The notes below the pieces were generated by a model. It was not told the DNA's origin. It saw nothing but the letters and a program-made list of their open reading frames with translations, and made no database searches. A DNA stretch of 54,096 bases from a virus (Duplodnaviria; Caudoviricetes). The stretch lies in the IMG/VR virus record IMGVR_UViG_3300005613_000081, positions 1 through 54,096 of that record; one strand, given 5' to 3'. The position numbers and the translations under genes are program-made. The first letter of the stretch is position 1, and each line of letters starts with the position of its first letter. Below, in pieces: positions 6,773-35,100 of the stretch.

Positions 6773-7186
6773 ATGCCTAGACATCCGTCAAGTAGATGTA
6801 ATTTAACTTGGGAACAGATATTTGGTACAAGTGCTTCAAATAATTTATCTCAATATAAACGTAATACTTGTATTGAGGAGACTGTAGATATAGAAACTGT
6901 CCAAATTAAAGCTCCTTGGGTTAGTTTAAACGATTTCCATTATTATCATATTAAATGCCCTTATTCGACTGAGGCGTCTATTCATACAGTAAGGAGTGAT
7001 GATGGCGATAGTTGGCAATATACAGATGTATCAAGTGAAGCAGATACTCATACATCTACTAGTGGTATTATGATTAGATATAATAGAGGATCAAAATATG
7101 GATACTTATGTGTTGACCCAAACTGCCCTTATTATAAAGGAACTGTAAGTGGTACTGAAGGTGGTAGTTGGTATTTTTATGTATAA
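6773..7186 (+). CDS. Hypothetical Cys-containing protein
   Basis: 137-aa ORF with RBS gaggag; contains KCPY and CVDPNCPYY, and TVSG. Confidence 0.7.
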   Translation: MPRHPSSRCNLTWEQIFGTSASNNLSQYKRNTCIEETVDIETVQIKAPWVSLNDFHYYHIKCPYSTEASIHTVRSDDGDSWQYTDVSSEADTHTSTSGIMIRYNRGSKYGYLCVDPNCPYYKGTVSGTEGGSWYFYV

Positions 7187-7220
7187 AGATTTATAAAATT
7201 TCATAAGGAGGAATTGAATT

Positions 7221-8207
7221 ATGGCTACAAGTGTAACTGTTTATGATTTAGAGAATTATCCAGATAATTCAAAAACTATTACTCTGGACCACAAAGCTGT
7301 TGTACCGGTTGGGGAAGAAGGAGATGAAAAGTGGGTATTGTCTTTTACAACTACTGCTTATTCTGATAATACTGAGCGTACAGCCATTTCTGATTTATAT
7401 ATTCAAGAGATGAAAGGCGGATGGTTGAAGAGTAGTGGTTTTGCAGGCAGTGGTGGTGGAAAATTTACTATAGGAGATAGTAGCAAGCAATTAAAAGTTA
7501 AATTGGATAATGTTACTGGTGCCGATGGTGAAGGCGGTTATTACGTTATAACTTTAACAACAGGTGTAAATTTAACTGGTGATGCTATTGCTCAAGATAT
7601 GGAAACTCAGTTAAGAGCTTTGCCAGATGATTCTGATTGGGTAACTGCTGATACAACTGCTGGATATGACTTATCTTATAGAAGTTGTACTGTTGAATTT
7701 AAAGATAGTAGGTTTTGGATAATTTCTGGATCTGTATCTGCGTATTATACTGGTGCTTCAAGGTCATCGGTGGATGTTGCTAAGGTTACTGCTGATACTT
7801 GTTATGAAACTTTGGGGTTTGATCTTTCTGTGGATAGTCAAACTATAGCCGGTGTTTCAATCAAAGAAGCTTTGGTAAGTGTGAATTATACTGCTAATAC
7901 TACTCCGTTATCTATAGGGGCTGGCACTGGTGTAGTAGTTGGTGATGCTCTTATGATTACTGATGGGACTAATACTAATTATTTTACAGCAATATCCGGC
8001 ACAACCGATACTAGTGTAGTTGTTGCTACAAGTGGTAATAATAATTATATGGGAATCAGTCATAGTTATGAAGCAGATGTATCTAAGGTTCAGATACTAA
8101 GAGAGCAAGATCCTCAGAATGAACCAGTTAGTTATTATGAAACTGTTGATTCTATTACTAGACGTGGGATTATGGATATCACAAATCAGATTGATTTCAG
8201 TTCTTAA
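7221..8207 (+). CDS. Virion structural protein carrying a sheath/flagellin insertion-like domain
   Basis: RBS aaggagg. The FTIG...L.V.LD...ITL..G..L....IA.D...ISGS...SSV.V...LGF segment is shared with 16931..18511 and 24425..31075. Confidence 0.6.
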   Translation: MATSVTVYDLENYPDNSKTITLDHKAVVPVGEEGDEKWVLSFTTTAYSDNTERTAISDLYIQEMKGGWLKSSGFAGSGGGKFTIGDSSKQLKVKLDNVTGADGEGGYYVITLTTGVNLTGDAIAQDMETQLRALPDDSDWVTADTTAGYDLSYRSCTVEFKDSRFWIISGSVSAYYTGASRSSVDVAKVTADTCYETLGFDLSVDSQTIAGVSIKEALVSVNYTANTTPLSIGAGTGVVVGDALMITDGTNTNYFTAISGTTDTSVVVATSGNNNYMGISHSYEADVSKVQILREQDPQNEPVSYYETVDSITRRGIMDITNQIDFSS

Positions 8208-8265
8208 GTAATTTTAATAAGTTATTAGAAGAGGTATTTTGAAATATAAAAAGAGGTAATTTAAA

Positions 8266-8775
8266 ATCGCTGATATTTATGTAAGAAATTCATTAGGAAA
8301 TTTAACTGTAAAATTCACTATTACTTTACGTTATTTTGTAATAAAAGGTGAGCATGGTGAATATATGTGGTCACTTGAGATAGGAACTACTCATTTGGAT
8401 GCGAATGGTGATGATATTTCGGCTAAAAAAATACATAATATATCTTCTGAGAATTTAGATGATGTTGTAGAATCCGCTCTATCTGATCTTTGTAGTTTAA
8501 TAGATTGGTCACCACTAGCTGAAGATAGGCGTGAGCCTTTTGTTGATTCTTATTCGCCTAGTGGTAGTAGTGTGCCTATTACTTCTAATATAAAAATGAT
8601 GCTTAAAGATAACTTGCCTTCTGGGGGGATAGATATTTCTGATATTAAAGTTGTTTTAAATAATAGTGTCCAAGATTTTGATATAACTGAAGATGTAGAG
8701 TTAGTTGATCAATATTATAATGAATATGAGTTTAAATGGACGCCACCATTAAGAGTGTATGATACATATGATTAA
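8266..8775 (+). CDS. Virion protein with an Ig-like C-terminal domain; probable start at ATC 8266 (ORF track starts at ATG 8365)
   Basis: The frame is open from 8260. RBS aagaggt (8251-8257) lies 8 nt before ATC GCT. The extension (TITL..FVIKGEHGEYMWSLEIGTT) aligns with the N-terminus of 7221..8207 (TITL...VVPVGEEGDEKWVLSFTTT). The C-terminus resembles the Ig-like repeats of 11721..14324. Confidence 0.65.
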   Translation: MADIYVRNSLGNLTVKFTITLRYFVIKGEHGEYMWSLEIGTTHLDANGDDISAKKIHNISSENLDDVVESALSDLCSLIDWSPLAEDRREPFVDSYSPSGSSVPITSNIKMMLKDNLPSGGIDISDIKVVLNNSVQDFDITEDVELVDQYYNEYEFKWTPPLRVYDTYD

Positions 8776-8789
8776 AAGGAGTAAATAAC

Positions 8790-10061
8790 ATGTCCTACGA
8801 GAACTTAAAATTAAGAAAAAGGAATTTTACTGTTGATCAGGGGTATTTTTATACTTTTGATGAAGATCAGGATAGTCTGCTTCAAAAGACAGATGATGGG
8901 AGTACTTCGTTCACATATCCACTTGACACTTTGATGACTCAGGAGGTGTTAAGTACTGAATATACAGATCCATATTTTTGGTCGCTTGAAAGTGTTAGTG
9001 GTTATTATAATATGGCTATTAAGCGGTGGAAGATAGATAATTATATTTGCAAGTTGCAGCAGACGTTTACTATAGCTTCTGGTACTGGTAACGTCCCATA
9101 TAATTATCTGTTTAGTTCTGAGGCTTTTTCAGTAGAGCATTATCATACAACTCTGAATGGAGCTACAGTAAGTGGTAGTAGTACTTTATATTTAAATGAA
9201 TATTCAGATAGTGATTCTATGAATTTTACTACTAGCAATGGAGGGCCTTTAGTTTTACATATTGGTCCTAATTCAAACGGGGAAGAAGAAGATGTAGATG
9301 TTTACACTACTATTTCTGGTGGAGTGACTATTAGTGGTACGATTCAATATAATTATGATTCTGGTGATAAGGTAAATTATTATACTTATTTTTGGTTATT
9401 TAATGATTATGATGGAGATGATAGTTCTACCGGAGCATTATATAAATTTGATGCGCATACTGGTGATTATATATCAAAATATTCTGGTGGAGCTTATAAA
9501 GATGTTTCAGCTGCTACTTTTTATAACGTGGATTCATTTACTGAATATGGAGATGTAGATACTTTAGCTTATGTTAAGGGTACTAATACTTTATTTGTTA
9601 ATGTTGGTTCTGATAGTTTATCATATTATGGGTCTATGGTAATGGATAATGTTGAGGACGACGAAGCTACACTTATTAAGGTTTATGATATGGTGATGGA
9701 TGATCAGAATGTTTATAGATTGCAAAAAAAGGCCACTTATTATGGTGATACTGAGAGTTGGACGTATTATAGTTATCAATTATCTAGTCTAGATTCTTTC
9801 GTCACCTCTATTTCATTAGCTGCTTATCCAGCTATTATAGCCGCTAATTTAGTTAGTAATTCTAGTATAGTTGCTTATGTAAAAGATCAGTTTTTACAAC
9901 CTATAGTTGGTAGGCTTGTTAATTTTACAGACGATAATACCGAGGGTATTATAATAGGGTCTCCTGATAATACTGATTCTGATGGGAAAGCTCAAGTAAC
10001 TTATAGATCTGGAGATGATGCAACAGAGGTTAAAATAACAGCTATTGTGGAACAAACATAA
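8790..10061 (+). CDS. Virion protein, paralog family 'MSYEN' copy 1, C-terminal Big-1 (invasin-type Ig) domain
   Basis: C-terminal SISLAAYPAIIAAN..S.IVAYVKDQF.QPI.G..VNF....TDSDGKAQVTY is a Big-1 pattern. Colinear with the next two genes. Confidence 0.7.
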   Translation: MSYENLKLRKRNFTVDQGYFYTFDEDQDSLLQKTDDGSTSFTYPLDTLMTQEVLSTEYTDPYFWSLESVSGYYNMAIKRWKIDNYICKLQQTFTIASGTGNVPYNYLFSSEAFSVEHYHTTLNGATVSGSSTLYLNEYSDSDSMNFTTSNGGPLVLHIGPNSNGEEEDVDVYTTISGGVTISGTIQYNYDSGDKVNYYTYFWLFNDYDGDDSSTGALYKFDAHTGDYISKYSGGAYKDVSAATFYNVDSFTEYGDVDTLAYVKGTNTLFVNVGSDSLSYYGSMVMDNVEDDEATLIKVYDMVMDDQNVYRLQKKATYYGDTESWTYYSYQLSSLDSFVTSISLAAYPAIIAANLVSNSSIVAYVKDQFLQPIVGRLVNFTDDNTEGIIIGSPDNTDSDGKAQVTYRSGDDATEVKITAIVEQT

Positions 10062-10071
10062 AGGGTAAATT

Positions 10072-11709
10072 ATGAGTTATGAAAATATAAGATTTTCAAA
10101 ATCAAATATGGTTGTTGATAGCGGTTATTTTTATATGTTTGATGAAACCAATGATTTATTGACACAAAAACTTGATGATGGTAGTATATCTTTTATTTAT
10201 CCTTTAGATACTCCTCTTTCTAATACAGTTAAAAGCTGTGAATTTGACGGAATTTACTTTTGGACTTTAGAAAATCCTGGTACTGATAGTATTATTAAAA
10301 GATGGAAAATAGAAAATAATACATGTAATTTAAAAGATACTTTTGTATTTGGTGATTTAACTGATCCTGATGGAATATGTGAGTCTAGAACTGTTTATGG
10401 TTTATCCTATCTTTGTTCTAAAGCTTTTGATAATAATGAAAGCAGTGGATATTATCATTCTGCATCTGGATATCCACATTGGATAGGATATGATTTTGGA
10501 GTAGGTAATCAGAAAAAAATAAATAAAGTAAGAATTAAATTTTATTATAACCATTATTCAGAAACAGTTGTTGTACAAGGATCTAATAGTTTAGATGTTA
10601 ACTGGGAAGATAAAGCATGGACAGATATATATACAATGACAGGCATTGATTCCTCAGGACATCAATGGAATGAAAGGGAATTTACTAATAACATAGCTTA
10701 TAGATTTTATAGATTATATGGAGCGGCAGCTGGCCCAGGAGGAAATACATATTGGTGTATATGGGAAATAGAAATGATGATAATTTCTTTAGATTCAGAA
10801 TCTTTTACTGTTGAACATTACCATACCTCATTGTCTACCACAATATCTGGCGGTGATGGTGTTATACAGGTAAGCAATTATTATGATACAGTTATAAGTG
10901 GTGGTGTAACTTTAACTATAGGACCAAATGGTTTATATCAATATGAAGATGTAGTAGTAAATTCTGTAAGTGGTACTAATATTACTTTAGTGTCTGGAAC
11001 ACAATATGACTATGAAATTGGAGATGATGTTGGTTTTTATTTGTATTTATGGGTTTTTGATAATGATGGTGATGGATCTTTGTGTAAAATCGATGCACGA
11101 ACAGGAACTTTGTTAAATCGATACTATGATTCTGAATATGATGATATTAAATCATGTACGTTTTATAAGGTTACTAATGTGTTTGATAATAATGTAGATG
11201 CCTTGATTTATGTTAAATCTAATAATCTTAAGTTTATCAGTGTAGATGATTTAAGTACTTATGGTACGATGATTATGGATAACTTGAGAGTAGATGGAAT
11301 TACGGTTATTCCTATTTATGACATTAGTATTGATATTAAAAATGTGTATAGATTACAAGGTGAAGCTACTTATTATGGTGTAGATAATGATTGGGGAGAT
11401 TTATATAATTATCAGGTATCTACTACTAGACCTTTTGTTGATTCTATAACTGTTGCCGCTAGCCCATTAATTTTACCAGCTAATGCTAAGAATGTTACAC
11501 AGGTAACTGCTGCCGTTTTTGATCAGTATGGGAATGGTTCTGAAAACAAGCCAGTGTCTTTTACAGATGATGATAGTGTAGGATATATACTCACTAATCC
11601 GGCTTATACAGATTATTTTTTTGGCACAGGTCAAGCAAAGACTGCATATAGGGCTGGGGTAGTAGAACATACAGTTAATATAGAGGGGACTGTTACACAA
11701 TATGATTAA
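10072..11709 (+). CDS. Virion protein, 'MSYEN' copy 2, with an inserted F5/8-type C-like domain and a C-terminal Big-1 domain
   Basis: Aligns with copy 1 except for an insert at about 10351-10785 (KAFD...HWIGYDFG...INKVRI...VQGS...W...YRFYRL...EIEM), a discoidin/CBM32 pattern. Confidence 0.7.
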   Translation: MSYENIRFSKSNMVVDSGYFYMFDETNDLLTQKLDDGSISFIYPLDTPLSNTVKSCEFDGIYFWTLENPGTDSIIKRWKIENNTCNLKDTFVFGDLTDPDGICESRTVYGLSYLCSKAFDNNESSGYYHSASGYPHWIGYDFGVGNQKKINKVRIKFYYNHYSETVVVQGSNSLDVNWEDKAWTDIYTMTGIDSSGHQWNEREFTNNIAYRFYRLYGAAAGPGGNTYWCIWEIEMMIISLDSESFTVEHYHTSLSTTISGGDGVIQVSNYYDTVISGGVTLTIGPNGLYQYEDVVVNSVSGTNITLVSGTQYDYEIGDDVGFYLYLWVFDNDGDGSLCKIDARTGTLLNRYYDSEYDDIKSCTFYKVTNVFDNNVDALIYVKSNNLKFISVDDLSTYGTMIMDNLRVDGITVIPIYDISIDIKNVYRLQGEATYYGVDNDWGDLYNYQVSTTRPFVDSITVAASPLILPANAKNVTQVTAAVFDQYGNGSENKPVSFTDDDSVGYILTNPAYTDYFFGTGQAKTAYRAGVVEHTVNIEGTVTQYD

Positions 11710-11720
11710 GGTGTTTATTT

Positions 11721-14324
11721 ATGGCATATGAAAATGTTCAATTCCCATGTAAAAATTTTTGTATATTTCCCATAGTTGGTAATTTTTGTAGTATTGACTA
11801 TGATAATAGTTTGATGCAAGTAAAAAATTCGAGCGGGGATTTGATAAAAATATATAATTTAGATAATAGTGTTAATGAAATTGTATCTATAGAGTATGTT
11901 GGTCCAAGAGATGTTGGGGTATCATTAAGCCAGTTGGGGGAATGTTTACCTTTTTTTAGTTTAGATAGAGACGACGATGTTTATTTTATTAGAGAATGGC
12001 GATTAAATGCATCGAATTCGCAATTAGAATTGTATAATACCATAAGTGGGTCAGTTAATGACATTGATTGTTATGATATGTCTGTTGAATATTATTCTAC
12101 AGAATTTGCGGATGCTACAGTAACTGGTACTGGTCGAATAAAAATAGATGACTACAGTAATATATCTATTGGTGATCAGTTGTTGTTGGGTCCAAGTAGT
12201 GATATGGATAATCAATACGCATTTGAATGGGCGGAAGTAACAACTGTCAGTGGTGAATGGGTTTATATTACTTCGGAAGGAGTTACTCCACCACATTATG
12301 AATATGATGATGGGGATAAAATCACTTATTATAAAGATATTTTTCTTTTTAGTGATAATGATCAATATGGTAATACTACTAAAGGGTCTTTGTATAGGAT
12401 AGATTCTAGTGATGGGTCTATTTTGAATGTAGAAGATAGTGGTATTTATTCTGGTGTAAGAGCTTCTGCGTGGAGTTCTGTTTATCAGTGTATAGGAATG
12501 GTTAATGGGTCAAATTTGTTATATATTGATCCTGGTAATGAGTATGATGTACAAAAATCACATGTATTAACTAATATAGAGAGTGATTATGTAACAACTA
12601 TTCCAGTTTATGATTTAATTTTTGATTCAAATACTATTTATAGGTTACAACAAAAGATAACATTAAAAGATGATGATGGTGATAGGTCTACTACAGATTG
12701 GTCACCTTATTACAATTACCACCAAGATACTATAGCGCCTTATACTAGTAGTATATCGCTATCTGTAGATCCAGATGGCGTGGTGTTAAATGATGATCAG
12801 GTAACTATAACAGCTGTAGTTAGAGATCAATATGGGGTTGGGTTATTAAGTAAATTACTTTATTTTACTAAGACCGGTGGAGATATGGGTGGTAGTTTTG
12901 ATCCCATAAATGGTCAGGTATATACAAATGCTAGTGGTATAGCTACTATTATATATAATACTGGGGATTATGATTTGGGTGGTACTAATTCAGAAATAGA
13001 TATAAAAGCAAAAACCGATGGATCTTCTACTTTGACTGGAAGTTCATATGTTTGGGATAATGTTTCTTTATTTTTATACAGTAATTTTACTATTAATTTA
13101 ATAAATTTTACACAAAAACCAACTTTAAGTGGTGTTTGGCCCACTTATGGGTCTGATTTATATAATCAAATATATATGACTCAGATAAGTGGGATGGAAA
13201 GTGAATTTAATGTTAAACAATTAAATAAATTTCAATTTCCTGGTGGTCCCTGGAGTATAAATTCAGCACCTAACGATAATACAACTGTTATAAGGCAATT
13301 GTTAGATAGAGAGGACAAGTTAAAACTTGACCAATTGGTTAATCCATTTGAGAAGGTAGTATATGCTTTTCAGGATGAGGGGCAATCTAATGATTTACAA
13401 ATAAGTCAAACCTATGTTAGTAGACATTTAAGTTCTGGACATCAAGATGATGTGGATATAGACCAATTTAGATTTGTAGAAGATGCTATCCCAGCATTTT
13501 GGTCAGAAAAAAATTCTAAGGATACTGATATATGGATAAGATTAAGACCATTTGCCTATGATTTAAATGGTAGTACATTAATTTTCAGGGTAAGAGAAAT
13601 TTCCTACGCTGGTGATACTGGTTATGTAAATGTTACATCGTCTTGTGTAGTAACTCCGTTTGATGCTGGTGGTAGTTTACAAGGGCTAGATATACTTTAT
13701 AATCCAAACAATGATTTTCATCACAATGCTGTTGTGTATGTTAGTATAGAAGTATACGATAACGCTCCTGTTCCAAATATTATATTAACTGACTATTGGT
13801 TTAGAATAATACCAGATTATACTACTCCTTATATAACTAATGAGGACCCATCAAGGGAGGAGGAAGATGTTGTAGTTAATACTAATATATCTTTTGATAT
13901 TATAGATGTTGGTGTTGGTGTAGATATTGATACACTAGAGTTTTATGTAAATGCTAGAAAGGTTAATACATATTCTGTTTCGAATATATCTGGGGGGTAT
14001 CATGTAAGTTATAATCCTAGTAATAATTTTTATTACGGTGAAAATGTGGAAGTTACGGTTAAAGTAAAGGATGCTTCAGATAATGAAAATATGCTATATG
14101 ACATGTGGAGGTTTTATGTAATAGGTAGTACTGGACCATGGATTGATAGAGGTAGTTTTAATCCAAAAAATTGCTCTTATGGTGTTTATAGAAAACAGAC
14201 TGGTATATATTTTAATGTTTATAGTATTGATGATACAGGTGTTGATAGGGAAAGTATATTAGTTACTATTGGTGGTAAGGAAAGACAGGTTGTTATTACT
14301 CCTATAATTTATAGGCAGGAATAA
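11721..14324 (+). CDS. Virion protein, 'MAYEN' copy 3, Big-1 plus further Ig-like domains
   Basis: Shares the VEYY/VEHY, LGP, GD.I.YY and YRLQ blocks and the Big-1 pattern (ITAVVRDQYG...TNASGIAT). C-terminal PYITNEDP...NISFDI.D...GVD..T domains are Ig-like. Confidence 0.7.
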   Translation: MAYENVQFPCKNFCIFPIVGNFCSIDYDNSLMQVKNSSGDLIKIYNLDNSVNEIVSIEYVGPRDVGVSLSQLGECLPFFSLDRDDDVYFIREWRLNASNSQLELYNTISGSVNDIDCYDMSVEYYSTEFADATVTGTGRIKIDDYSNISIGDQLLLGPSSDMDNQYAFEWAEVTTVSGEWVYITSEGVTPPHYEYDDGDKITYYKDIFLFSDNDQYGNTTKGSLYRIDSSDGSILNVEDSGIYSGVRASAWSSVYQCIGMVNGSNLLYIDPGNEYDVQKSHVLTNIESDYVTTIPVYDLIFDSNTIYRLQQKITLKDDDGDRSTTDWSPYYNYHQDTIAPYTSSISLSVDPDGVVLNDDQVTITAVVRDQYGVGLLSKLLYFTKTGGDMGGSFDPINGQVYTNASGIATIIYNTGDYDLGGTNSEIDIKAKTDGSSTLTGSSYVWDNVSLFLYSNFTINLINFTQKPTLSGVWPTYGSDLYNQIYMTQISGMESEFNVKQLNKFQFPGGPWSINSAPNDNTTVIRQLLDREDKLKLDQLVNPFEKVVYAFQDEGQSNDLQISQTYVSRHLSSGHQDDVDIDQFRFVEDAIPAFWSEKNSKDTDIWIRLRPFAYDLNGSTLIFRVREISYAGDTGYVNVTSSCVVTPFDAGGSLQGLDILYNPNNDFHHNAVVYVSIEVYDNAPVPNIILTDYWFRIIPDYTTPYITNEDPSREEEDVVVNTNISFDIIDVGVGVDIDTLEFYVNARKVNTYSVSNISGGYHVSYNPSNNFYYGENVEVTVKVKDASDNENMLYDMWRFYVIGSTGPWIDRGSFNPKNCSYGVYRKQTGIYFNVYSIDDTGVDRESILVTIGGKERQVVITPIIYRQE

Positions 14325-14398
14325 TCTAACTAATATATATAGAGGACATTATTAAGTAGTAAATTGTAATTTATAAAATAATATTGTGTTGAGATAAA

Positions 14399-15826
14399 AT
14401 GGATAAATTAACAATTAGTGCAGCTTATTATACATCTACAGATACTGATGGTCAATCTAATTTAGATGTGTCAGCATCTCATTTTATAGATGGTGATGTT
14501 GGGTCTTACACAAATTTAGGTCCTGGACGTACTGCAGCAAGTATTGGTGGAGATTTAGGTTCTGCAAAGCCTGTTTCTAGAATTGAAACTTCTACGGATG
14601 CTGATTCATGGTCTAATTTTAAGGTTTTTTATAATTCTACTAATGGATCTTCTGGTTGGACTGAGGTTAGTAATTTAAGTGTTGATAAATATAATGCTGC
14701 TGGTGAAGGAGTTGGCGGACAATACCTTAATCAGTGGAATTTTACAGAAGTAAGTGCTAGATGGTGGAAAGTATGGGGAGATGACGGTAGTTCTACTGGT
14801 GCTCAGTCCGTTAGAGAGTTAGAAATATACGGTGTTACACCTAGTAGTAGTAGTTCTAGTTCTGAGTCTAGTTCTTCTAGCTCAGAGTCCAGTTCTTCAT
14901 CTAGTTCAAGTGAGTCTAGTTCTAGTTCAAGTGAGTCTAGCTCTAGTTCAGAATCTAGCTCAAGTAGTTCAAGTGAATCAAGTTCAAGTAGTTCAAGTGA
15001 ATCTAGTTCTAGTAGTTCTAGTTCAAGTGAGTCTAGTTCTAGTTCAAGTGAGTCTAGTTCTAGTTCAAGTGAGTATAGTTCTAGTTCAAGTGAGTCTAGT
15101 TCTAGTTCAAGTGAGTCTAGTTCAAGTAGTTCAAGCGAATCTAGTTCTAGTAGTTCTAGTTCAGAATCTAGTTCTAGTTCAAGTGAATCAAGTTCTAGTT
15201 CTAGTTCAGCTGATCAGACTTTAGTTATAGACAATTTTTCTATGAATGTCGGTGAATGGTTGTCAATTGTAGATTTGGATTCGTTTAGTGTAGATGTGGT
15301 AGACCATAAGTATAATGTTAGTGTGTCTGGTACTTATTTTTTGTGTGATGGGTATGTTGTACCCACAAGTTATTCTGGAATAAATGATGGTTACAAATTT
15401 TATTATTCTCCTACCACAATTAGTGGTGAATTAGATTTAACTATTCATGCTAAGAATGATAATAATGAGGTTAAAGAAGAGGATTATCATATATTATATG
15501 GATATAATGTATCATTTAATCAAATAATAGATTGGGGAGTTAATACAGATGTTGTTGTAACTATAGATGTAAAAAATGAGGTTTCATGTCCTAACACTGA
15601 GGGGGATGCTTTTTATTTTAGAACGGCTGATTTTCATTCATATGATTTGAATGCTGTTGTTAGGGCTGTAGAATCTACTGATTTAAACGCTGTTATTTAT
15701 CCTCAAAATACATTTTTCTTTTACGGAAGGACTTATAGTGTTACTATATCTGGAGTTAGGGATTATGCTGGGAATGATATGGAGAATTTTAATTTTACTT
15801 TTACGATTGAGAACCCAAATAATTAG
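14399..15826 (+). CDS. Adhesin-like virion protein: F5/8-type C-like domain, poly-Ser/Glu linker, Ig-like C-terminus
   Basis: N-terminal IDG...GGDLGSAK.VSRI...W...ARWWKV...ELEIYG. About 122 aa of S/E linker. C-terminal TYSVTISGVRDYAGN..FTFT is a Big-5/SbsA-type pattern. Confidence 0.7.
   Translation: MDKLTISAAYYTSTDTDGQSNLDVSASHFIDGDVGSYTNLGPGRTAASIGGDLGSAKPVSRIETSTDADSWSNFKVFYNSTNGSSGWTEVSNLSVDKYNAAGEGVGGQYLNQWNFTEVSARWWKVWGDDGSSTGAQSVRELEIYGVTPSSSSSSSESSSSSSESSSSSSSSESSSSSSESSSSSESSSSSSSESSSSSSSESSSSSSSSSESSSSSSESSSSSSEYSSSSSESSSSSSESSSSSSSESSSSSSSSESSSSSSESSSSSSSADQTLVIDNFSMNVGEWLSIVDLDSFSVDVVDHKYNVSVSGTYFLCDGYVVPTSYSGINDGYKFYYSPTTISGELDLTIHAKNDNNEVKEEDYHILYGYNVSFNQIIDWGVNTDVVVTIDVKNEVSCPNTEGDAFYFRTADFHSYDLNAVVRAVESTDLNAVIYPQNTFFFYGRTYSVTISGVRDYAGNDMENFNFTFTIENPNN
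14843..15208 (+). repeat. Coding low-complexity repeat (S5-9E)n, including 21-bp units
   Basis: gagtctagttctagttcaagt occurs at 15029, 15050, 15071 (one mismatch) and 15092, within a degenerate TCTAGT array. Confidence 0.95.
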
Positions 15827-27400: not shown

Positions 27401-30400
27401 TTAGTTGATGGTAAAGAATCTTATGTATTTGAAAATGAATATAGTTGGTATTATTATGGTACATTGAGTAGTGGTACTTCTGTAGATTATTGTAATTCTG
27501 AAGCTGGGCATAGAAAAGATATAGTTTTTGACGCAGTTTCTAGTAAATATTGGAAAGTAAGCGGATATTATCCAGAAGATTATGTTATTTCAAATGTTGA
27601 TGCTTTTTATAATGGAAACTCTGTGAATATAATTAGTACATTATCTGGTACAATGACATATGAATCGCCTTTTTTTATAGAGTTAGAAAGTAATGAACCT
27701 TTGGATACTATTATATTATATGCTACTGGTGATCTTACTTTACCATCTATTTTTTTGAGTGTTGATAATATTACTTATGGTTTGTGGGCTAGAGATATAG
27801 GTTCTACTAGTGATGCTACTGAGATTGATGGTACATGTGATTCTAAAGATTGTTATGATGATGATTGTGATTATTTTGGCTGCAGAAAGGCTTTTAATAA
27901 TGATGAAAGTGATTATTATCATTCAAAAGCAGGAGATGCTTTAGATCCCGAAAAATGGTTAGGGTACGATTTTGGTGAGGAAGTAGTAATTCAAAGAGTT
28001 AGATTTAAACAGTATAGTGCTACTGGTCATTACTTAAAAAATTATATTGTGGAAGGTACTACTGATGCTAATGCTGATTGGGATTCTAGATCTTGGACTA
28101 CATTAGCTAATGGTACTGGATCTATGGGTTGGAATGATATTACATTTAGTAATAGTACTGGATATAAGGCAATTAGAGTTAGAGGAGATTCACATTCGCC
28201 ATATTATTTTGTTGTTAAGGAAATGGAAATGTATGGCAGTGTTTTAGATAGTCCAAACAATCTGTCATTAAACATTTATGATTATTATAAATATTTTGTT
28301 ATAGATTTGGAAAGAAGGCATAATTTAGATATAATTAGAAATTATGGTGATGATACTAATAAATTATTTATAAGTACTAATGTTGTTACTGATTTTTCTA
28401 ATAGTATGACATCTAATGTAGATGATGTTATATGGAATAATAGTACTAATGAGGATGTTAGGTGGTTGAGGATCAAGATTTTATGTGAGGAAAGTAATAC
28501 TAAATGTTTGAGAAAGTTGGGTATTTATTCAGATATTTCTCAAGCTTATTGTATTGGCGGTGGATATAACTGTGAATGGGAATCTTTAGGTACTATTTTG
28601 TCATCATACCCAGCTCCGATAAATATTGCTTATGGTGCCACTGTTACTGGTACTAATTATTGGTTTAGAAATTATTATCCAGATAATGCTGTAGATGGTA
28701 TTTATGATAGTTATAAAACTGAAGATAGTTGGGGATTTCAAAAAGTTGATGGTATTGATCCATATTTAGAGATAGATTTTGATGATATTTATACAATTAA
28801 TAAAATAAAATTATACCATGGACATAATCCTAAAGATACTACATATATAAATAAAGATTATACACTCAGTGTATTAACAACTGTTTCTGGTATTTTTGAG
28901 GAAGTGCTAAGTGTAACTAGTAATGATGAGTATGAAGTAACACATCAATTTGATCCTGTTGATGCTCAGATTGTAAGATTGACAATTACTGATTATGATT
29001 CTAGTAGATATTTAGTTTATAACGAATCTACCCAAAGATATGAAGAATTTAAAGGTAGTTTTTTAAGAGAAGTGGAGATTTATACTTATGTAGATGAGGG
29101 GTATGTAGATAGTGAAACATGGCCTGTTGTGTGTATGAACTTGAAGGACCAGTTTAATATTATTGATCATGAATTAATTAATAAGGACATTACTGATTCT
29201 GATACTGATTGGGATAACAATGAAGATTTTTTTAAGTATTCCGATAATATTTGGAGTGATCCAGAAAAGGTTTCTTTTACTGAAGGTGGTGAATATGTAA
29301 CATCCTACGTAAGCGATGATAATTCAGGTGATGTAAGAGGATCTACTGAATATTTGTTTGATACAAATGTTTATTTTGAAGAGGGTAGGTATAATATTGA
29401 GTGGAGTGCTTATAAAGCTGTTTATAATGAAGAAATAAGTTTGAGGTTAGAGGGTAACAATGTTATAGATAGTTTTGCTGATGTTTTGTATGATGGATGG
29501 TCAGGTCAAAAAAGTATTATAGATATTTCTGAAAGTGGTTTTTATGATATAAAAGGTGTTCAGCATATAAGTCCTGAGTATAGGTGGGGGACGAAAGATC
29601 CGTATATATATAGATCTAGTGGTTATGTTAAATGGGTATCTGTAAAGAGAGATACTGCTGAAAATTATTCTTATGATGATGATTCGGATAAATATGGTAA
29701 GGATTATTTGTCATTATTTAAGGTTTTTGGCGATACTAAATATAATCCTTCAGAGTATAGTTGGTGGTGGTCATCAACTTTAAGTAGTTTAGATAATGAT
29801 GGGTTTAATGTACAAGTTGGGTCTCGTTCACTGAAAATTAGTTATCCAACATCATCTGGTACTGATATTGTTTCTTTTATAGAAGGTGATGATTTTGGCG
29901 AGGATATTTATTATTCGCCTGAGGATGCATTATCTTTTTGGTGGTATATTAGTGATGTGAGTAAATTAGATGTGGTTTTTGGAGATGTATCTTTTGGTAT
30001 TATAAATGGTGAAGAACCTATTTATTATAAATGGTATATTAATAGTTTATCTTTAACATCTAATTGGAATTATATTAGATTAAAGTTTAATGAATATGAT
30101 ATTGTTAGTCCTTCTACTGATTTATATAGTATGTATAGTTTTTTAGACGAAAAGTTAGATTTTCGTACAAACGGTAAAAGTTTTACTTCTTTTAAAATTA
30201 GATATAGAGGCAAAGGTCAATCATTTATTATGAATATCGATAGTTTAAAAATAGAAAGAAATAAATTTTTAGATTTTGTAAAATTTGAAAATGGATTATG
30301 CTTGACTAATGACGATTTTTTAGAAACGCCAATTTCTAATTTAAGTTTAAGAAAAGGGTCTATAGAGTTTTATCTGAAATTATATTATGATTCTTATGGT

Positions 30401-31075: not shown

Positions 31076-31087
31076 AGAGTGGATATT

Positions 31088-32125
31088 ATGGTTAAAAAGA
31101 TTACATATGAATTTGTAAAAGAACAATTTGAGAAAGAAAAGTATAAGTTATTAAGCAAAGAATACATTAATGCTCATACAAAATTGGAATATGTTTGCCC
31201 TCAAGGACACAGGCATAGTATTATTTGGAATAGTTGGCAGCGAGGACATAGATGCCCTTTTTGTGTTGGACTCGGTAAGCCTTCTATAGAATTTATTAAA
31301 TCTGAATTTGAAAAAGAAGGATATCAACTTTTAACAGATAGATATATAAATAGCAGACAAAAATTAGTTTACATTTGTCCAGAGGGTCATAAGCATAATA
31401 TTACATGGTCTTCTTGGTGGTTTCAGAAATGTAGATGCCCATATTGTGTTGGAAAGGCTAAGCCGATTACTGAATTTATCAGGTCGGAATTTAAAAAAGA
31501 GGGTTATGAATTATTAACTAAGGAATATGTGAATAGTAGGCAAAAGTTAGATTATATCTGTCCTAATGGGCATAAACATGATATTTCATGGCATGATTGG
31601 CAACAGGGCCGACGCTGTTATTATTGTTTTGGTAATATAAAACCGCCTATAGAATTTATTAAATCTGAGTTTGCTAAAGAGGGTTATATTCTTTTAATTA
31701 CTGAGTATGTAAATAGTCAGCAGAAATTAGATTATATTTGTCCTAGAGGGCACAAGCATAATATTAGTTGGAATAGATGGAAACGAGGGCAAAGATGCCC
31801 ATATTGTATTGGGAGAATTTCTAATGAAGAGGTAGAAGTAAGAAATTTTATTGAATCTTTGGGCATTAAAATTTCACCAAACGATAGGAAACAAATATTT
31901 AATCCATATACTGGGAATGGGTTTGAATTAGATATTTTCATGTTAGATTTTGATAAAGCTGTGGAATATAATGGGACTTATTGGCATAAAGATGAGGGTA
32001 GGGACTTACTCAAACAGCAGCTTTGTAGAGCAAAAGGAATAGATTTATTAACTATTTGGGATAAGGAATGGTTAAATGATAATGATAAATGTAAAGATAA
32101 AATAACAGAATTTATATTTAATTGA
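31088..32125 (+). CDS. Zn-binding repeat (4x) + Vsr/DUF559-like endonuclease, copy 2
   Basis: Same architecture as 15836..16915, with ELDIF...AVEYNGTYWH...D..K. ATG 31088 is preferred over GTG 31079 because it matches the paralog N-termini. Confidence 0.8.
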   Translation: MVKKITYEFVKEQFEKEKYKLLSKEYINAHTKLEYVCPQGHRHSIIWNSWQRGHRCPFCVGLGKPSIEFIKSEFEKEGYQLLTDRYINSRQKLVYICPEGHKHNITWSSWWFQKCRCPYCVGKAKPITEFIRSEFKKEGYELLTKEYVNSRQKLDYICPNGHKHDISWHDWQQGRRCYYCFGNIKPPIEFIKSEFAKEGYILLITEYVNSQQKLDYICPRGHKHNISWNRWKRGQRCPYCIGRISNEEVEVRNFIESLGIKISPNDRKQIFNPYTGNGFELDIFMLDFDKAVEYNGTYWHKDEGRDLLKQQLCRAKGIDLLTIWDKEWLNDNDKCKDKITEFIFN

Positions 32126-32152
32126 ATAATGAAATAAAAAGGGGTTTAATAA

Positions 32153-35100
32153 ATGGCAAAATACAATTTGATTCGAAATGGAAGTCTCCAACCACTTTTA
32201 GTAAGTGGCACTGGCAATAGGAATTTAAGCTGGCTTCAATTAGAAAGTTTAATGGATGGGACAACTACTTCAGGAGGAGTTACTTTAACATCTGATGATG
32301 TTTTGTATTTGGAAGCTGATATGTCCAATCGGGTTAAATTAGATTCAGTAAGACTTTATGCTAGTGATTTAACTAAATCATCCAACATTAATTTTTATTA
32401 TAAAAACTATGATAGTGATAATTATACTTTGTGTTCTAAAAGTGTGGGTGATTACTATTATCCCACATTACCAAGTCCACAAGCTCCTAGGTTTATTTTA
32501 ACTACTATTTCAGGTATTAGTATACAAATATATGAATACATGATAATTAACAATGATACTATAGTGGCTTATGGGGAAGACGGTAGTGAATATGCTAAAT
32601 ATCTGGATGATTGCCCTGTTGGTGAAACAGGCGATGCTACAACTGTATCAATTTATAATAATTCTACAAACGCTATGCCTGCAAATGCTTATGTGTGTGT
32701 GGATTGGACAGATGATGAGGCTGATAATTATGTGAAAATATCATCGAGTGAAAATGGTACTTATTATGGTATTGAAGATGGTATATTAGTTGAGGATAAT
32801 AATGAATCATCAACTTATATGTGGGATATGGGTGAGTATAGTAATATGGAGGTTTCTGGTGACAGTGTTGTTATAAGCTCAATTGCGGATGGTTTAGTTA
32901 TAAAAATGTTGGATGAGTTGCCTTTAATAGATAATTCCAATGCATTTGGTACAGGAAGTAACACATGGGATTATGATAGTGTTAATAAAAAAATGTATGT
33001 TATTGGTAGGGATTCTTCAACGTTAAAATTATGGGAATATAATTATAGTGATGATGAGTGGGACTATATAGGAGAGATAGATAGTGTTGGCAGTGATAGT
33101 GACGCTAATTTTCCAGTAATGTCTTATTGTTCTGTATCTGGTACTAATAGGATATATGTAATGACTAAATTTGATGGCACGTTCGGTTATTATGACTTAG
33201 ATGGTATTCAAGATAATTGGACTACGTGTGTTAATCCAAATTGGAGCTTTAGTTTAGATTCAAGTGACAGAGTTTCTATGTGTAGTGATGGCGTAAAATA
33301 TATATATGCTTTAACTTCTGAATATGGGGAAGATTTTAATGATAGAAATTTCAAAAGGTTTGATACTATATCTGGTACATGGACTACTTTGAGTGGATCA
33401 TACCGTCAATATCCATATGAAAGTGGAAGTGGAAGTTATTATCCAAATAGAACTTGTATGACTTATGATAAAGACAGAGATTATATTTATTTGGCACAAG
33501 GTTCTGAGGGACATGCCACTAATAATTATATACAAAAATATGTTGTGGATTCTAATGTGTGGAATAATCAATATATAGATGTTGATGAATTAACAGGATA
33601 CGAGTCAAATATATTTTATTCAATATCATATTGTAATAATTATTTGTATTTAAGTTGTGACGAAAACTGGGAGTCTTATTTTTATTCGTACAATCTATCC
33701 ACAGCTGAGGTCGAAAAAATTTATTTGGGATACAAACATGAAACTGTAAATCAAAATGGGCCAAGTTGTTATATATTAGCTATTAATCCTTCTGATAGTG
33801 GTAATAGTGTATATTTTGCACAAATTGATGATTATAGTGAATATTTAATTTCCTATGGGGTTGTATTTAGTAGTGTTGGTATTTATACATCTCCAATTTT
33901 TTATTTTGAAGATGTTGATAGCGTAAGTTATTTTATAACTGATGGTACTACTGAAAGTGGTAGTAATAGTATAAGCTATAATGAGAATGTATATAATGGT
34001 ACTATTAGAGTGAGAAGTAGTAATACTACTCCTTTAACTATTGATGAAGTTTATTGGGGAATAGAAACATCTAGTAGTGATGTGTATATAAAAAATGCTG
34101 TTATATACAATGGTGATTTTAGTGATTTGGTTAGTGTGGGCAGTAATTATTGGACACCTTTATTTATAGCAGTTGATAAAAGAACTGGTTATATTTATTT
34201 TGCTTATACTTATTATTATAACTGGAACAATAAGGGTGCTGGATTTTATGTATATGATTATAATGGTACTTTAATATATGATATAGGAGGAGGCTTTTAT
34301 TATAACGAATCTGTTATTACTAATGTTGAAATAGATAAGTTTGGTAATATTTGGTGTTATGCAGTATCTGCTAAAACCTTATTTCATAGAGATGCTTCAA
34401 ATGATAGTAGTTTGTATTCATATAATGATGGTACTGATTTTCTTTACGATTTGGCTGTTGAGATGGGTGGTACTGGTGTATGGTATACTGATAAGTTAAA
34501 TGATTTAATAGTTCATTTAGATACAGATGGTAATGTTTTGCATCAATTACCATCAAATGAACCTAGAGCTATTTGTGGTACTACAGATAATGGTTGTTGG
34601 ATTACTGATAATACTGATGAAAAGGCATATAAGTATAGTTCTACTGGTACCTTGTTGCAAACAGTAGATATTGGGAGAACAGCTACTCGTATGTGTAGTG
34701 ATATGGTGGATGGTTTTTGGTATATTAGTAGTGACCATGTTTATCATGTTGACAGTAATGGTACTGAAGATGTAGATGTTTCTGTTGGTAATGTTTCCAG
34801 AATTAAAGGTGGGTATAATGGGTGTGTTGTATGGCCTAGCGATAATGATTGGGTAAAATATATAAATAATAATGGAAATATTACTAGGACTTTTACAATA
34901 CCCGGTATAACTAATACAGCTTGTCCAGCATTATTTTCTTTTAGACATGAAGATTTTGTCGAATTTCAAGATACTGCCAACTTAATTCCAGTTAGTTATG
35001 ATCCTATTTGGGGAACAGGTGGATCTCTTGAATGGAAAGAAGTTAGAAAAGATGGATATTTTTTACCAAAAGTTAGATATCACCAAACTGAAACAACTTT

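What the first reader, a model, noticed from the sequence alone, without database searches (positions are those of the whole stretch)
7140..33397. Recurrent T-T-[IVL]-S-G motif across unrelated virion proteins: candidate sequon for a phage-encoded O-glycosylation system
Seen: the exact pentapeptide TT[IVL]SG occurs nine times in seven structural ORFs (nt 9306, 10837, 12240, 15413, 17897, 25067, 28877, 32501, 33383). By hand count T[IVL]SG occurs 17 times and SVSG 5 more, with near variants such as LVSGT, TTSGG, ATVTGT and TAISGT. Most sit in non-homologous contexts (Ig-like, propeller, discoidin and sheath-like domains), so paralogy does not explain them. I found none in the 40.3-54.1 kb replication proteins or in the three inserted nucleases. 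A rough composition-based expectation for T[IVL]SG is about one. Established: some actinobacteriophages O-glycosylate virion proteins on Ser using their own glycosyltransferases, and Ser-Gly is a known glycan acceptor context in other systems. Inference: this is a convergently selected acceptor motif read by phage enzymes such as the GT4 pair at 51.7-54.1 kb, giving a sequon-directed glycan coat over the tail apparatus.
Basis: partly seen in the sequence, partly recalled or inferred. Interest (0 to 1): 0.85.

Follow-up and report, generated by a model that had tools for sequence, protein, structure and literature searches.

The report
Recurrent Thr-x-Ser-Gly motif in virion proteins
A five-residue peptide, Thr-Thr-(Ile/Val/Leu)-Ser-Gly, recurs far more often than chance in the particle proteins of an uncultured group of very large phages, usually where a beta-strand ends in a tight turn; it may be a tag read by a modifying enzyme, but sugar attachment is not shown.

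Summary
TT[IVL]SG occurs 9 times (0.10 expected) and T[IVL]SG 17 times (1.55 expected), all in ORFs between 6.8 and 35.3 kb. The signal is at peptide level: Ser uses TCT 11, AGT 10 and TCA 1, and the DNA pattern occurs in frame only.

The enrichment holds across the clade. In 59 related viral loci T[IVL]SG is 328 against 40.5 expected. In two complete relatives of about 270-296 kb it is confined to structural and fibre genes. It is absent from crAss001, T4 and T5 virion regions, 3 against 3.43. The motif is cooperative: the full tetrapeptide is 8.2x enriched, any three of four positions 1.0-2.5x.

In two AlphaFold models the Ser is the first or second residue after a beta-strand at 5 of 6 sites.

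The glycosylation reading is neither shown nor refuted. A GT4 pair is core to the clade, found in 30 of 40 records and 3 of 3 complete ones. It is a generic GT4, BshA-like, lying beside a nuclease and replication genes, with a ThyA homologue in the window. That matches published phage DNA-glycosylation clusters.

My estimates: trans-acting reader or modification 0.45, structural hairpin idiom 0.35.

The parts
7142..7153 (+). TVSG, ORF 6773-7186, residue 124
   Evidence: conserved in relative L001, lost in L013
8991..9002 (+). SVSG, ORF 8790 residue 68; end of strand 62-69, Ser-Gly open a 4-residue loop of a propeller blade
9165..9176 (+). TVSG, ORF 8790 residue 126; coil before strand 132-135
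   Evidence: family hot region 121-127
9306..9320 (+). TTISG, ORF 8790 residues 173-177; Ser-Gly form the two-residue turn of a hairpin (strands 167-175 and 178-181)
9327..9338 (+). TISG, ORF 8790 residue 180; strand end then coil
10837..10851 (+). TTISG, ORF 10072 residues 256-260 (paralogous to 8790 site 126)
10963..10974 (+). SVSG, ORF 10072 residue 298
12039..12050 (+). TISG, ORF 11721 residue 107
12240..12254 (+). TTVSG, ORF 11721 residues 174-178
13122..13133 (+). TLSG, ORF 11721 residue 468
15320..15331 (+). SVSG, ORF 14399 residue 308 (conserved C-terminal domain 273-475)
15413..15427 (+). TTISG, ORF 14399 residues 339-343
15743..15754 (+). TISG, ORF 14399 residue 449. 21 of 55 homologues keep the motif. 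Where it is lost, Thr and Ser are replaced together by Glu or Arg while the middle residue stays Val/Ile/Leu.
17411..17422 (+). SVSG, ORF 16931 residue 161; last residues of strand 159-164. Gly is invariant in 59 of 59 homologues; the site is kept even in distant 494-498-aa relatives.
17897..17911 (+). TTVSG, ORF 16931 residues 323-327; coil before strand 330-332
25067..25081 (+). TTVSG, ORF 24425 residues 215-219, in a domain remotely related to 16931 N-term and 7221
27638..27649 (+). TLSG, ORF 24425 residue 1072
28877..28891 (+). TTVSG, ORF 24425 residues 1485-1489, inside the F5/8 type C (discoidin) match 1421-1519
32501..32515 (+). TTISG, ORF 32153 residues 117-121
33131..33142 (+). SVSG, ORF 32153 residue 327
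33365..33376 (+). TISG, ORF 32153 residue 405
33383..33397 (+). TTLSG, ORF 32153 residues 411-415
8790..14324 (+). Three paralogous virion proteins (8790-10061, 10072-11709, 11721-14324). Each has a beta-propeller plus a Big_1 Ig-like domain; 10072 also has a discoidin domain.
16931..18511 (+). 526-aa clade marker protein, upstream of a 101-aa ORF and the 1772-aa tape-measure-like ORF. That position suggests a major tail protein; the fold is unassigned.
51741..53114 (+). GT4 glycosyltransferase, 457 aa (Glycos_transf_1 2.3e-12; GT4-conflict 4.1e-8; best NCBIfam BshA 2e-12, far below cut-off)
53117..54094 (+). Second, weaker GT4-like gene, cut by the contig end (Glycos_transf_1 7.9e-5, below cut-off). 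Orthologues of about 375-380 aa in relatives pass the cut-off.
50598..51737 (+). PD-(D/E)XK nuclease directly upstream of the GT4 pair. This order is kept in the complete relatives G007 and G030.
40304..40957 (+). Thymidylate-synthase-family protein, 217 aa. Relevant only as a possible base-modifying partner of the glycosyltransferases.

Best explanation
[TV]-T-[VI, less often L/A/C/T/Y]-S-G is a short peptide signal that this clade of about 270-300 kb uncultured phages has created and kept repeatedly on its particle proteins. Thr and the hydrophobic residue close a beta-strand, with Thr and Ser on the same outward face. Ser-Gly start the following tight turn.

The signal is cooperative, specific to the clade, and occurs in unrelated folds. 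I therefore think it is most likely read in trans, by an enzyme that modifies the exposed Ser (or the Thr/Ser pair) of folded virion proteins in the cytoplasm before or during assembly. Ser O-glycosylation by phage-encoded glycosyltransferases is the leading candidate for that enzyme.

Shown: the enrichment, its peptide-level nature, its specificity per position, its restriction to structural genes, its spread across the clade, and its strand-end/turn location in two models.

Inferred: exposure of the Ser, the existence of a reader, and the chemical nature of any modification. I put about 0.25 on O-glycosylation by the GT4 pair specifically, within 0.45 for any trans-acting reader.
For: - Cooperativity over 753 proteins and 378,530 aa of the clade. 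The full T[IVL]SG is 345 against 42.1 expected (8.2x). With any one position wrong the ratio is 1.57x, 2.51x, 0.98x and 1.13x. The reversed motif is 1.12x.
- Position specificity. Ser is 8.2x, while Thr is 1.9x, Asn 1.1x and Asp 1.0x at the turn position. This is not the usual preference of tight turns.
- No general enrichment in other phages. 44,717 aa of crAss001, T4 (including the long tail fibres) and T5 virion regions give 3 against 3.43.
- Restriction to structural genes in complete relatives. In G030, 20-200 kb gives 2 against 2.2 expected, the structural block at 200-260 kb gives 13 against 2.3, and one fibre gene holds 10. G007 gives 27 against 6.5 overall.
- No shared descent visible around the 22 window sites. 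DNA flanks are 0.316 identical against 0.325 for controls; protein flanks 0.079 against 0.067. Ser codons are TCT 11, AGT 10, TCA 1.
- Turnover within families. In the 8790 family there are 22 motifs against 2.4 expected, in 10 alignment columns clustered at residues 121-127 and 170-180. Other sequences occupy the same turns in members without the motif. Gains and slides between close relatives are seen.
- Different contexts: propeller hairpins, a discoidin domain, fibre repeats, and Thr/Ser/Gly-rich variable inserts with 4-7 copies, 52 against 1.71 expected in 14 proteins.
- A candidate enzyme set exists. The GT4 pair is found in 30 of 40 relatives' records and 3 of 3 complete ones. GT2 genes are found in 3 of 5. 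In G030 a 4,6-dehydratase, a DegT aminotransferase and a PglD-like acetyltransferase lie next to the GT4 pair. No Pkinase was found in 5 of 5 records.
Against: - No modification is shown, and no enzyme is linked to protein.
- The GT4 pair is generic. It sits beside a PD-(D/E)XK nuclease in the replication block with a ThyA homologue in the window. This resembles published phage DNA-glycosylation clusters, whose GT-B enzymes look like BshA, MshA and PglH and pair with ThyS or 5mYOX.
- Motif enrichment is the same in relatives with the DegT pathway (53 against 6.7) and in relatives at least 55% complete without it (67 against 8.08). These are hand sums.
- G007 keeps both GT4 orthologues (64% and 57% identity), but its orthologues of 8790, 11721, 14399 and 32153 have no motif.
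- All six modelled sites share one local structure, strand end plus turn. A purely structural motif would show the same.
- In the G030 fibre the motif sits at a fixed place in a repeat of about 57 aa, where the commonest variant is SASG.
- The site at 16931:161 is kept even in distant relatives, as a structural residue would be.
- Some sites are paralogous.
- Counts over relatives include orthologous, non-independent sites.
Confidence: 0.45

Rival explanations
1. A purely structural 'box' motif. T-hydrophobic-S-G would be a favoured way in these protein families to end a beta-strand and make a tight turn or a strand-to-helix switch. It would be kept by folding or stability needs and spread by blade, hairpin and repeat duplication plus convergence, as the Asp-box hairpin is in propellers and other folds. 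Nothing reads it.
For: - 5 of 6 modelled sites have Ser as the first or second residue after a strand, and the sixth ends a strand.
- 9 of the 22 window sites lie in three paralogous propeller proteins, at roughly blade-spaced positions 68, 126 and 174/180.
- In family alignments Gly is the best-kept position: 33 of 45 at 8790:129 and 59 of 59 at 16931:164.
- The motif has a fixed place in a fibre repeat of about 57 aa.
- Site 161 of the 526-aa protein is kept in distant relatives.
- Deep domain kinship exists between 16931, 7221 and 24425.
- Precedent: the Asp-box is described as a short motif that folds as a defined beta-hairpin, is present in different folds, and is most prominent as repeats in propellers (PMC2716378, abstract seen in the listing).
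Against: - A physically favoured turn should be general, but crAss001, T4 and T5 virion proteins show 3 against 3.43.
- Asn-Gly and Asp-Gly after T-[IVL] are not enriched.
- The same turns in the 8790 family accept many other sequences.
- Nothing beyond the core is shared between sites.
- There is no BNR/Asp-box Pfam match.
- The strong preference for Thr over Ser and Val at the first position is hard to derive from strand propensity alone.
Confidence: 0.35
2. Another kind of reader or function: a site for a host enzyme, a docking element for assembly or chaperone factors, a contact for binding host surface sugars, or a protease site.
For: The clade-specific, cooperative enrichment needs some lineage-specific cause. 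The phage encodes its own DnaJ. The motif-bearing proteins carry lectin-like domains (discoidin, ConA-like).
Against: No specific evidence for any of these. Cutting inside propeller hairpins and a conserved tail protein would be destructive. DnaJ-type chaperones are not known to read such motifs (recalled). The host is unknown.
Confidence: 0.15
3. Chance, composition, a DNA-level signal, or simple paralogy.
For: Three paralogues hold 9 of 22 sites. The structural proteins are rich in Thr, Ser, Gly and Val.
Against: - 0 of 1000 shuffles reach the observed counts.
- 13 against 0.79 remain after dropping the paralogues.
- Reversed and permuted motifs are at about 1x.
- The DNA pattern occurs 17 times in frame, 0 in the other two frames and 2 on the opposite strand.
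- Ser uses two codon families.
Confidence: 0.02

Closest known systems
O-glycosylation of mycobacteriophage virions by phage-encoded glycosyltransferases (Freeman et al. 2023, Cell Host Microbe). The paper itself was not available. I know it only as cited in PMC12619734 (passage read) and from recall.
   Same: The phage carries its own glycosyltransferases, and particle proteins are the proposed acceptors.
   Different: There, as cited, the glycans sit at the C-termini of capsid and tail-tube subunits; no short sequon was mentioned in the passage I read. Here a defined pentapeptide is scattered through many tail-side proteins, and no modification is shown.
Sequon-directed bacterial protein glycosylation: Campylobacter D/E-X-N-X-S/T with a diNAcBac-based glycan, and Bacteroidetes D-(S/T)-(A/I/L/V/M/T). 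Both motifs are recalled, not from a call.
   Same: A short motif marks acceptor proteins. The hydrophobic or methyl-bearing residue set next to a hydroxyl residue resembles position 2 here (V, I, A, C, T, L, Y). Some relatives encode the dehydratase/aminotransferase/acetyltransferase trio typical of diNAcBac-type sugars.
   Different: Those systems work outside the cytoplasm on lipid-linked glycans with an oligosaccharyltransferase. No Asp or Asn is part of this motif, and no oligosaccharyltransferase was sought or seen. The amino-sugar trio is in only 9 of 40 relatives' records, and the window ends before that region.
Asp-box (BNR) beta-hairpin motif (PMC2716378, abstract seen in the listing)
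   Same: A short motif at a beta-hairpin, found in different folds and as repeats in beta-propellers, with only the core conserved.
   Different: The consensus differs (S-x-D-x-G-x-T-W, recalled) and there is no BNR Pfam match. The Asp-box is widespread in cellular life, whereas this motif is not enriched in three unrelated phages.
Phage DNA sugar-hypermodification gene clusters (Pyle et al., bioRxiv 10.1101/2023.12.21.572611; passages read)
   Same: GT-B enzymes resembling BshA, MshA and PglH, often two per cluster, with epimerases, linked to ThyS-type or 5mYOX enzymes. The window has a BshA-like GT4 pair, a ThyA homologue, and a replication-gene setting.
   Different: This concerns the glycosyltransferases only and does not explain the peptide motif. 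The ThyA homologue is 11 kb from the GT4 pair and was not found beside it in G007. No base modification can be tested here.

Membership tests
Phage virion protein O-glycosylation system | Glycan covalently attached to virion proteins | not testable with these tools
   Needs mass spectrometry or glycan staining of particles
Phage virion protein O-glycosylation system | Phage-encoded glycosyltransferases present | tested here: met
   GT4 at 51741-53114, weaker GT4-like at 53117-54094. Found in 30 of 40 relatives' records and 3 of 3 complete ones.
Phage virion protein O-glycosylation system | The glycosyltransferases act on protein rather than on DNA, lipid or small molecules | tested here: inconclusive
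   Only generic GT4 matches (BshA, glycogen synthase, trehalose synthase, PBCV-1 B736L; SdgA 1.1e-5 on the C-terminal part only). Gene context is nuclease and replication.
Sequon-directed protein modification | Short motif enriched in the substrate class and not in other proteins of the same genome | tested here: met
   Window: 17 against 0.91 in ORFs 6773-35281, and 0 against 0.64 elsewhere. G030: 20-200 kb gives 2 against 2.2; structural block 13 against 2.3.
Sequon-directed protein modification | Acceptor residue exposed | tested here: inconclusive
   Ser at a strand end or turn in 6 of 6 modelled sites. Where the motif is lost at 14399:449, Thr and Ser are replaced by Glu or Arg. No coordinates were available to measure accessibility. 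16 of the 22 sites were not modelled.
Sequon-directed protein modification | Motif presence follows presence of the enzyme across relatives | tested here: inconclusive
   The GT4 pair never varies among complete genomes. The DegT pathway varies, 9 of 40, but enrichment is equal with and without it (hand sums). The single outgroup locus of 7.7 kb has 0 against 0.4 and its enzyme content is unknown.
Asp-box-like structural hairpin motif | Folds as a beta-hairpin or strand-end turn | tested here: met
   Two AlphaFold models, 6 sites. These are predictions only.
Asp-box-like structural hairpin motif | Asp-box consensus or BNR profile match | tested here: not met
   No BNR family among the Pfam matches of the ten structural proteins at E <= 0.01. 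The Gly position differs from the recalled consensus.
Asp-box-like structural hairpin motif | Occurs generally, wherever the fold allows | tested here: not met
   3 against 3.43 in 44,717 aa of crAss001, T4 and T5 virion regions
Phage DNA sugar-hypermodification cluster (for the GT4 pair) | GT-A or GT-B transferase together with a ThyS-type or 5mYOX base-modifying enzyme | tested here: inconclusive
   A GT-B/GT4 pair and a ThyA-family gene are both present in the window, but 11 kb apart. No 5mYOX was sought. The paper's criteria were read in passages only.
Phage DNA sugar-hypermodification cluster (for the GT4 pair) | Glycosylated bases in virion DNA | not testable with these tools
   Needs nucleoside mass spectrometry

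The most novel reading that the evidence does not exclude
A widespread clade of uncultured jumbo phages marks the hairpin tips and strand ends of its tail, fibre and decoration proteins with a defined pentapeptide sequon, [TV]-T-[VI]-S-G. A conserved pair of phage GT4 enzymes reads it in the cytoplasm, supplemented in some lineages by a diNAcBac-type amino-sugar pathway and GT2 extenders. The result is a glycan coat that varies between lineages. This would be the first sequon-directed protein glycosylation system of a bacterial virus.
Probability: 0.25. Interest if true: 0.85.

Novelty: new variant of a known kind. Interest (0 to 1): 0.66.

Why it matters
If the motif is a modification sequon, acceptor sites on phage particles could be predicted from sequence alone. 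That would give a handle on how large environmental phages shield or tune their surfaces, and a compact tag-plus-enzyme pair for protein engineering.

If it is a structural box, it is a new short hairpin motif. Its lineage-restricted, convergent spread would need explaining, and it would be useful for fold annotation of the many unannotated proteins of this clade.

In either case the statistics are strong and extend to 59 related loci and two complete genomes. The clade has no cultured member and almost no annotated structural genes.

Tried and rejected
**Alternatives tested and rejected**
- DNA-level signal. The degenerate 12-nt pattern occurs 17 times in frame, 0 in the other two frames and 2 on the minus strand. 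Ser uses TCT and AGT about equally.
- Chance or composition. Rejected by shuffles and by reversed and permuted motifs.
- Simple paralogy. It reduces the count of independent sites but does not remove the signal.
- General strand/turn preference. Rejected for three unrelated phages. This is only three phages.
- Avoidance of deamidation-prone Asn-Gly or Asp-Gly. T[IVL]NG and T[IVL]DG are at 1.1x and 1.0x, so they are not depleted.
No Pkinase match in 5 of 5 records.

**Searches that gave nothing usable**
- Identity of the 526-aa protein. No PDB sequence match, no Foldseek match with E <= 0.001 in the PDB or BFVD. The atlas gave only unnamed viral clusters.
- No match of ORFs 1327 or 16931 in GenBank phages.
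- No relative of ORF 7221 by single-protein scan.
- PHROGs gave no family for 18 of the 20 proteins searched. The exceptions are a tail-protein family for 10072 and endonuclease families for 15836.
- Outgroup test. Distant homologues P0156, P0158 and P0160 gave no viral locus and one 7.7-kb metagenome locus with 0 motifs against 0.4 expected. This is too little to decide.
- Host. Only four hits in metagenome bins, labelled Woesearchaeota, WOR-3 and Altiarchaeales, whereas the replication genes are of bacterial type. No conclusion.
- Literature. Searches 'bacteriophage + virion glycosylation + glycosyltransferase' and 'phage + O-glycosylation + sequon + virion' returned no paper describing a phage protein sequon. 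This covers only the held library, and supplements were not consulted.
- ThyA homologue. Best PDB matches are ordinary thymidylate synthases, which does not separate a synthase from a hydroxymethylase.

**Not attempted**
- Complex prediction was not used. An enzyme with its substrate is a poor case for that test, and I do not claim binding.
- Sequencing-run tools were not used.

Full report
**1. The observation**

- TT[IVL]SG occurs nine times at the stated coordinates, in ORFs 8790, 10072, 11721, 14399, 16931, 24425 and 32153.
- T[IVL]SG occurs 17 times and SVSG five times.
- There are none in ORFs 1-6770, in the tape-measure-like ORF 19090 (1772 aa), in the three HNH/CapR endonucleases, in ORF 36409, or in the 40.3-54.1 kb block.

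In 1000 shuffles that keep each protein's composition, TT[IVL]SG reached at most 2 (mean 0.10) and T[IVL]SG at most 8 (mean 1.55). Permuted or substituted controls (T[IVL]GS, G[IVL]ST, GS[IVL]T, T[IVL]SN, T[IVL]SD) were at or below expectation.

The signal is in the peptide, not the DNA:
- The motif Ser is encoded by TCT 11 times, AGT 10 times and TCA once.
- The degenerate DNA pattern occurs 17 times in frame, never in the other two frames, and twice on the opposite strand.

**2. How independent are the sites?**

ORFs 8790, 10072 and 11721 are paralogues and hold 9 of the 22 [ST][IVL]SG sites. Profile comparison adds deeper kinship:
- 16931 (residues 25-144) with 7221 (63-203), probability 98.6.
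- 16931 with 24425 (197-280), probability 96.7.
- 14399 C-terminal domain with 11721 (about 704-785), probability 90.7.

Without 10072 and 11721, however, the counts are still 13 against 0.79 and 7 against 0.064. The 22 sites also share nothing beyond the core. Their 60-nt flanks are 0.316 identical against 0.325 for random codon-aligned positions, and 8+8-aa flanks are 0.079 against 0.067.

**3. The clade**

ORF 16931 (526 aa) has more than 668 metagenomic homologues at 60-87% identity. It has no match among GenBank phages, no PDB sequence match, and no Foldseek match with E <= 0.001. It brought in 59 related viral loci with conserved gene order. CheckV estimates quoted put complete genomes at about 269-298 kb, so the window is roughly a fifth of a jumbo phage genome. 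The replication genes are of bacterial type: RecA, DnaB, DnaG, pol III beta, RuvC and DnaJ.

Over the 59 loci:
- T[IVL]SG is 328 against 40.5 expected.
- TT[IVL]SG is 97 against 3.8.
- Six permuted or substituted controls lie between 0.84x and 1.92x.

These counts include orthologous sites and are not independent events.

By family, the enrichment is seen in:
- homologues of 7221 (13 against 1.2);
- 8790 (31 against 4.1);
- 10072 (25 against 1.4);
- 11721 (30 against 4.6);
- 14399 (67 against 3.7);
- 16931 (31 against 7.1);
- 24425 (25 against 4.0).

It is weak in the tape-measure protein (12 against 6.1) and absent from the endonucleases.

One family absent from the window has conserved ends and a variable Thr/Ser/Gly-rich middle. 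It carries 52 motifs against 1.71 expected in 14 members.

**4. Genome-wide test in two complete relatives**

- G007 (268.8 kb): 27 against 6.5. The motifs are concentrated in a fibre-like ORF (6), a member of the variable-insert family (3), a ConA-like protein (3) and the structural block.
- G030 (295.8 kb, terminal repeats): 25 against 5.9. One 1152-aa fibre holds 10 and the structural block at 200-260 kb holds 13, against 2 observed for 2.2 expected across 20-200 kb, about 51,000 aa.

Genes crossing 20-kb borders were split in these scripts.

**5. Controls outside the clade**

Virion-rich regions of crAss001, T4 (baseplate-to-head region and long tail fibres) and T5 total 44,717 aa. They give T[IVL]SG 3 against 3.43, TT[IVL]SG 0 against 0.27, and [IVL]SG 42 against 47.25. 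The motif is therefore not a general habit of phage particle proteins. Only three phages were sampled.

**6. Anatomy of the motif**

Pooled over 753 clade proteins:
- Position 1 is Thr (8.2x; Ser 2.8, Val 2.6).
- Position 2 is Val 11x, Cys 10.8x, Ile 8.9x, Ala 6.4x, Thr 4.6x, Tyr 4.4x, Leu 4.3x. Charged residues are at or below 1x.
- Position 3 is Ser (8.2x; Thr 1.9, Asn 1.1, Asp 1.0).
- Position 4 is Gly (8.2x; Thr 2.0).
- The residue before the motif is Thr 3.7x or Val 2.6x.

The motif is all-or-none. With any one position wrong the ratios are 1.57, 2.51, 0.98 and 1.13, and the reversed motif is 1.12.

**7. Structure**

The AlphaFold model of ORF 8790 was built from 45 aligned family members and has mean pLDDT 91.1. 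It is a beta-propeller followed by a Big_1 domain. The Foldseek matches are BtuG-type, WD40, YjiK and LRP6 propellers. The model of ORF 16931 (pLDDT 69.7, good for residues 8-367) is all-beta.

In the six strict sites of these two models, Thr and the hydrophobic residue end a strand. Ser is the first or second coil residue in five sites, and in the sixth (16931:161) Ser-Gly are the last two strand residues. At 8790:176-177 Ser-Gly are the whole two-residue turn of a hairpin.

Exposure of the Ser is an inference, because no coordinates could be read. In the 14399 family, where the motif at residue 449 is lost, Thr and Ser are replaced by Glu or Arg while the middle residue stays Val/Ile/Leu. 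This fits an outward-facing Thr/Ser pair.

**8. Evolution of the sites**

- Some sites are old. At 16931:161 Gly is invariant in 59 of 59, Ser is present in 48 and Thr in 10. The site is still recognisable in distant 494-498-aa relatives.
- Others turn over. In the 8790 family, 22 motifs (2.4 expected) fall in 10 alignment columns clustered at residues 121-127 and 170-180. Members without the motif have many other sequences there.
- Close relatives show losses, gains at new places, and one- or two-residue slides.
- In G007 the orthologues of 8790, 11721, 14399 and 32153 have no motif at all.

**9. The glycosyltransferases**

ORF 51741 is a GT4 (Glycos_transf_1 2.3e-12). ORF 53117 is a weaker GT4-like gene cut by the contig end. 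PF00534 matches occur in 30 of 40 relatives' records and in 3 of 3 complete ones. The ten records without a match are 19-55% complete. The pair follows a PD-(D/E)XK nuclease in the window, in G007 and in G030.

Other glycan genes in relatives:
- GT2 genes are present in 3 of 5 records, including all three complete ones.
- In G030 the GT4 pair is followed by a GT2, a 4,6-dehydratase, a DegT aminotransferase, a PglD-like acetyltransferase, an unknown ORF, another GT2 and a second epimerase.
- DegT occurs in 9 of 40 records.

These phages therefore make glycans, and the glycan genes vary.

The acceptor is open:
- The GT4 has only generic matches: BshA, glycogen synthase, trehalose synthase, PBCV-1 B736L.
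- Pyle et al. (bioRxiv 10.1101/2023.12.21.572611; passages read) showed that phage GT-A and GT-B enzymes resembling BshA, MshA and PglH put mono- to trisaccharides on hydroxymethylated cytosine in DNA. Those enzymes are often paired with epimerases and linked to ThyS-type or 5mYOX enzymes.
- The window has a ThyA-family gene at 40304, and the GT4 pair lies in the replication block.

DNA is thus at least as plausible a target as protein.

Motif enrichment is the same in DegT-positive loci (53 against 6.7) and in DegT-negative records at least 55% complete (67 against 8.08). These are hand sums.

**10. Weighing the readings**

Any explanation must cover four things: a four-to-five-residue, all-or-none, Ser-specific motif; its creation many times in unrelated contexts; its restriction to particle proteins; and its restriction to this clade.

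- A lineage-specific reader explains the clade restriction most simply. The strand-end Ser-Gly would give an enzyme an accessible hydroxyl next to a residue with no side chain.
- A structural box in the manner of the Asp-box (PMC2716378, abstract in the listing) explains the uniform local structure, the propeller and repeat settings, and the old conserved sites. It does not explain why unrelated phages lack the enrichment, or why Asn-Gly and Asp-Gly are not used alongside.

My estimates are 0.45 for a trans-acting reader (0.25 for O-glycosylation by the GT4 pair), 0.35 for the structural box, 0.15 for other functions, and 0.02 for artefact.

**11. Limits**

- No modification, exposure measurement or enzyme-substrate link was obtained.
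- Only two proteins were modelled.
- The outgroup test failed for lack of sequence.
- The search of earlier findings, the listing of cluster members and the wide structural library were unavailable.
- The key paper on mycobacteriophage glycosylation was not held.
- Supplementary files were not consulted.

Noticed in passing
window 15836-16915, 31079-32125, 35278-36309: Three paralogous HNH/CapR-type homing endonuclease genes (56-65% identical to each other) sit between structural genes. Relatives carry homologues at other places in the same module, which suggests mobile insertions.
   Followed up: partly
window 14399-14833 versus 36409-37400: The first 145 residues of ORF 14399 are 86% and 72% identical to two tandem N-terminal segments of ORF 36409. 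In close relatives (L001, L013) the 14399 homologue is only its 205-aa C-terminal domain. The window's gene therefore looks like a recent fusion with a copied N-terminal module.
   Followed up: partly
window 40304-41481: A short (217 aa) thymidylate-synthase-family gene, best matched by the methanogen-type model below cut-off, is followed directly by an HNH/NUMOD4 endonuclease gene. Whether it makes dTMP or a hydroxymethylated base is open.
   Followed up: partly
window 16931-18511 and relatives: The 526-aa protein is very conserved (mean column identity 69% over 32 sequences). Its C-terminal 160 residues are predicted with pLDDT under 50, and no fold match was found in the PDB or BFVD. Its place before a 101-aa ORF and the tape-measure-like gene suggests a major tail protein of a new type.
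   Followed up: partly
window 7221-8207, 16931-17362, 25013-25264: A shared domain with the pattern Y-I-T-L-x-[ST]-G followed by a helix links ORFs 7221, 16931 and 24425 (hhalign probabilities 81-99). This could be the shared tail-tube-like module of tube, adaptor and tip proteins.
   Followed up: no
L090 (G030 180-200 kb): A complete relative encodes a ribonucleotide reductase large subunit interrupted by an intein with a LAGLIDADG domain. Next to its GT4 pair it has a full dehydratase/DegT/PglD-like amino-sugar pathway with two GT2 genes.
   Followed up: partly
L062-L065: Relatives of this phage sit in metagenome bins labelled Woesearchaeota, WOR-3 and Altiarchaeales, although the phage's replication genes are of bacterial type. 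This is probably binning by composition and gives no reliable host.
   Followed up: no
window 49308-50084: A full-length DnaJ (J domain, zinc-finger domain and C-terminal domain) is encoded in the replication block and is conserved in G007.
   Followed up: no
L081 7444-10899 (G030) and G007 4034-6232: Long fibre proteins are built of repeats of about 57 aa, each containing ...[ST]-[AVI]-S-G-[SH]-L-Q-x-Q-I-D... Only the C-terminal 137 residues of the G030 fibre match anything in GenBank phages (cyanophage proteins, 33% identity).
   Followed up: partly
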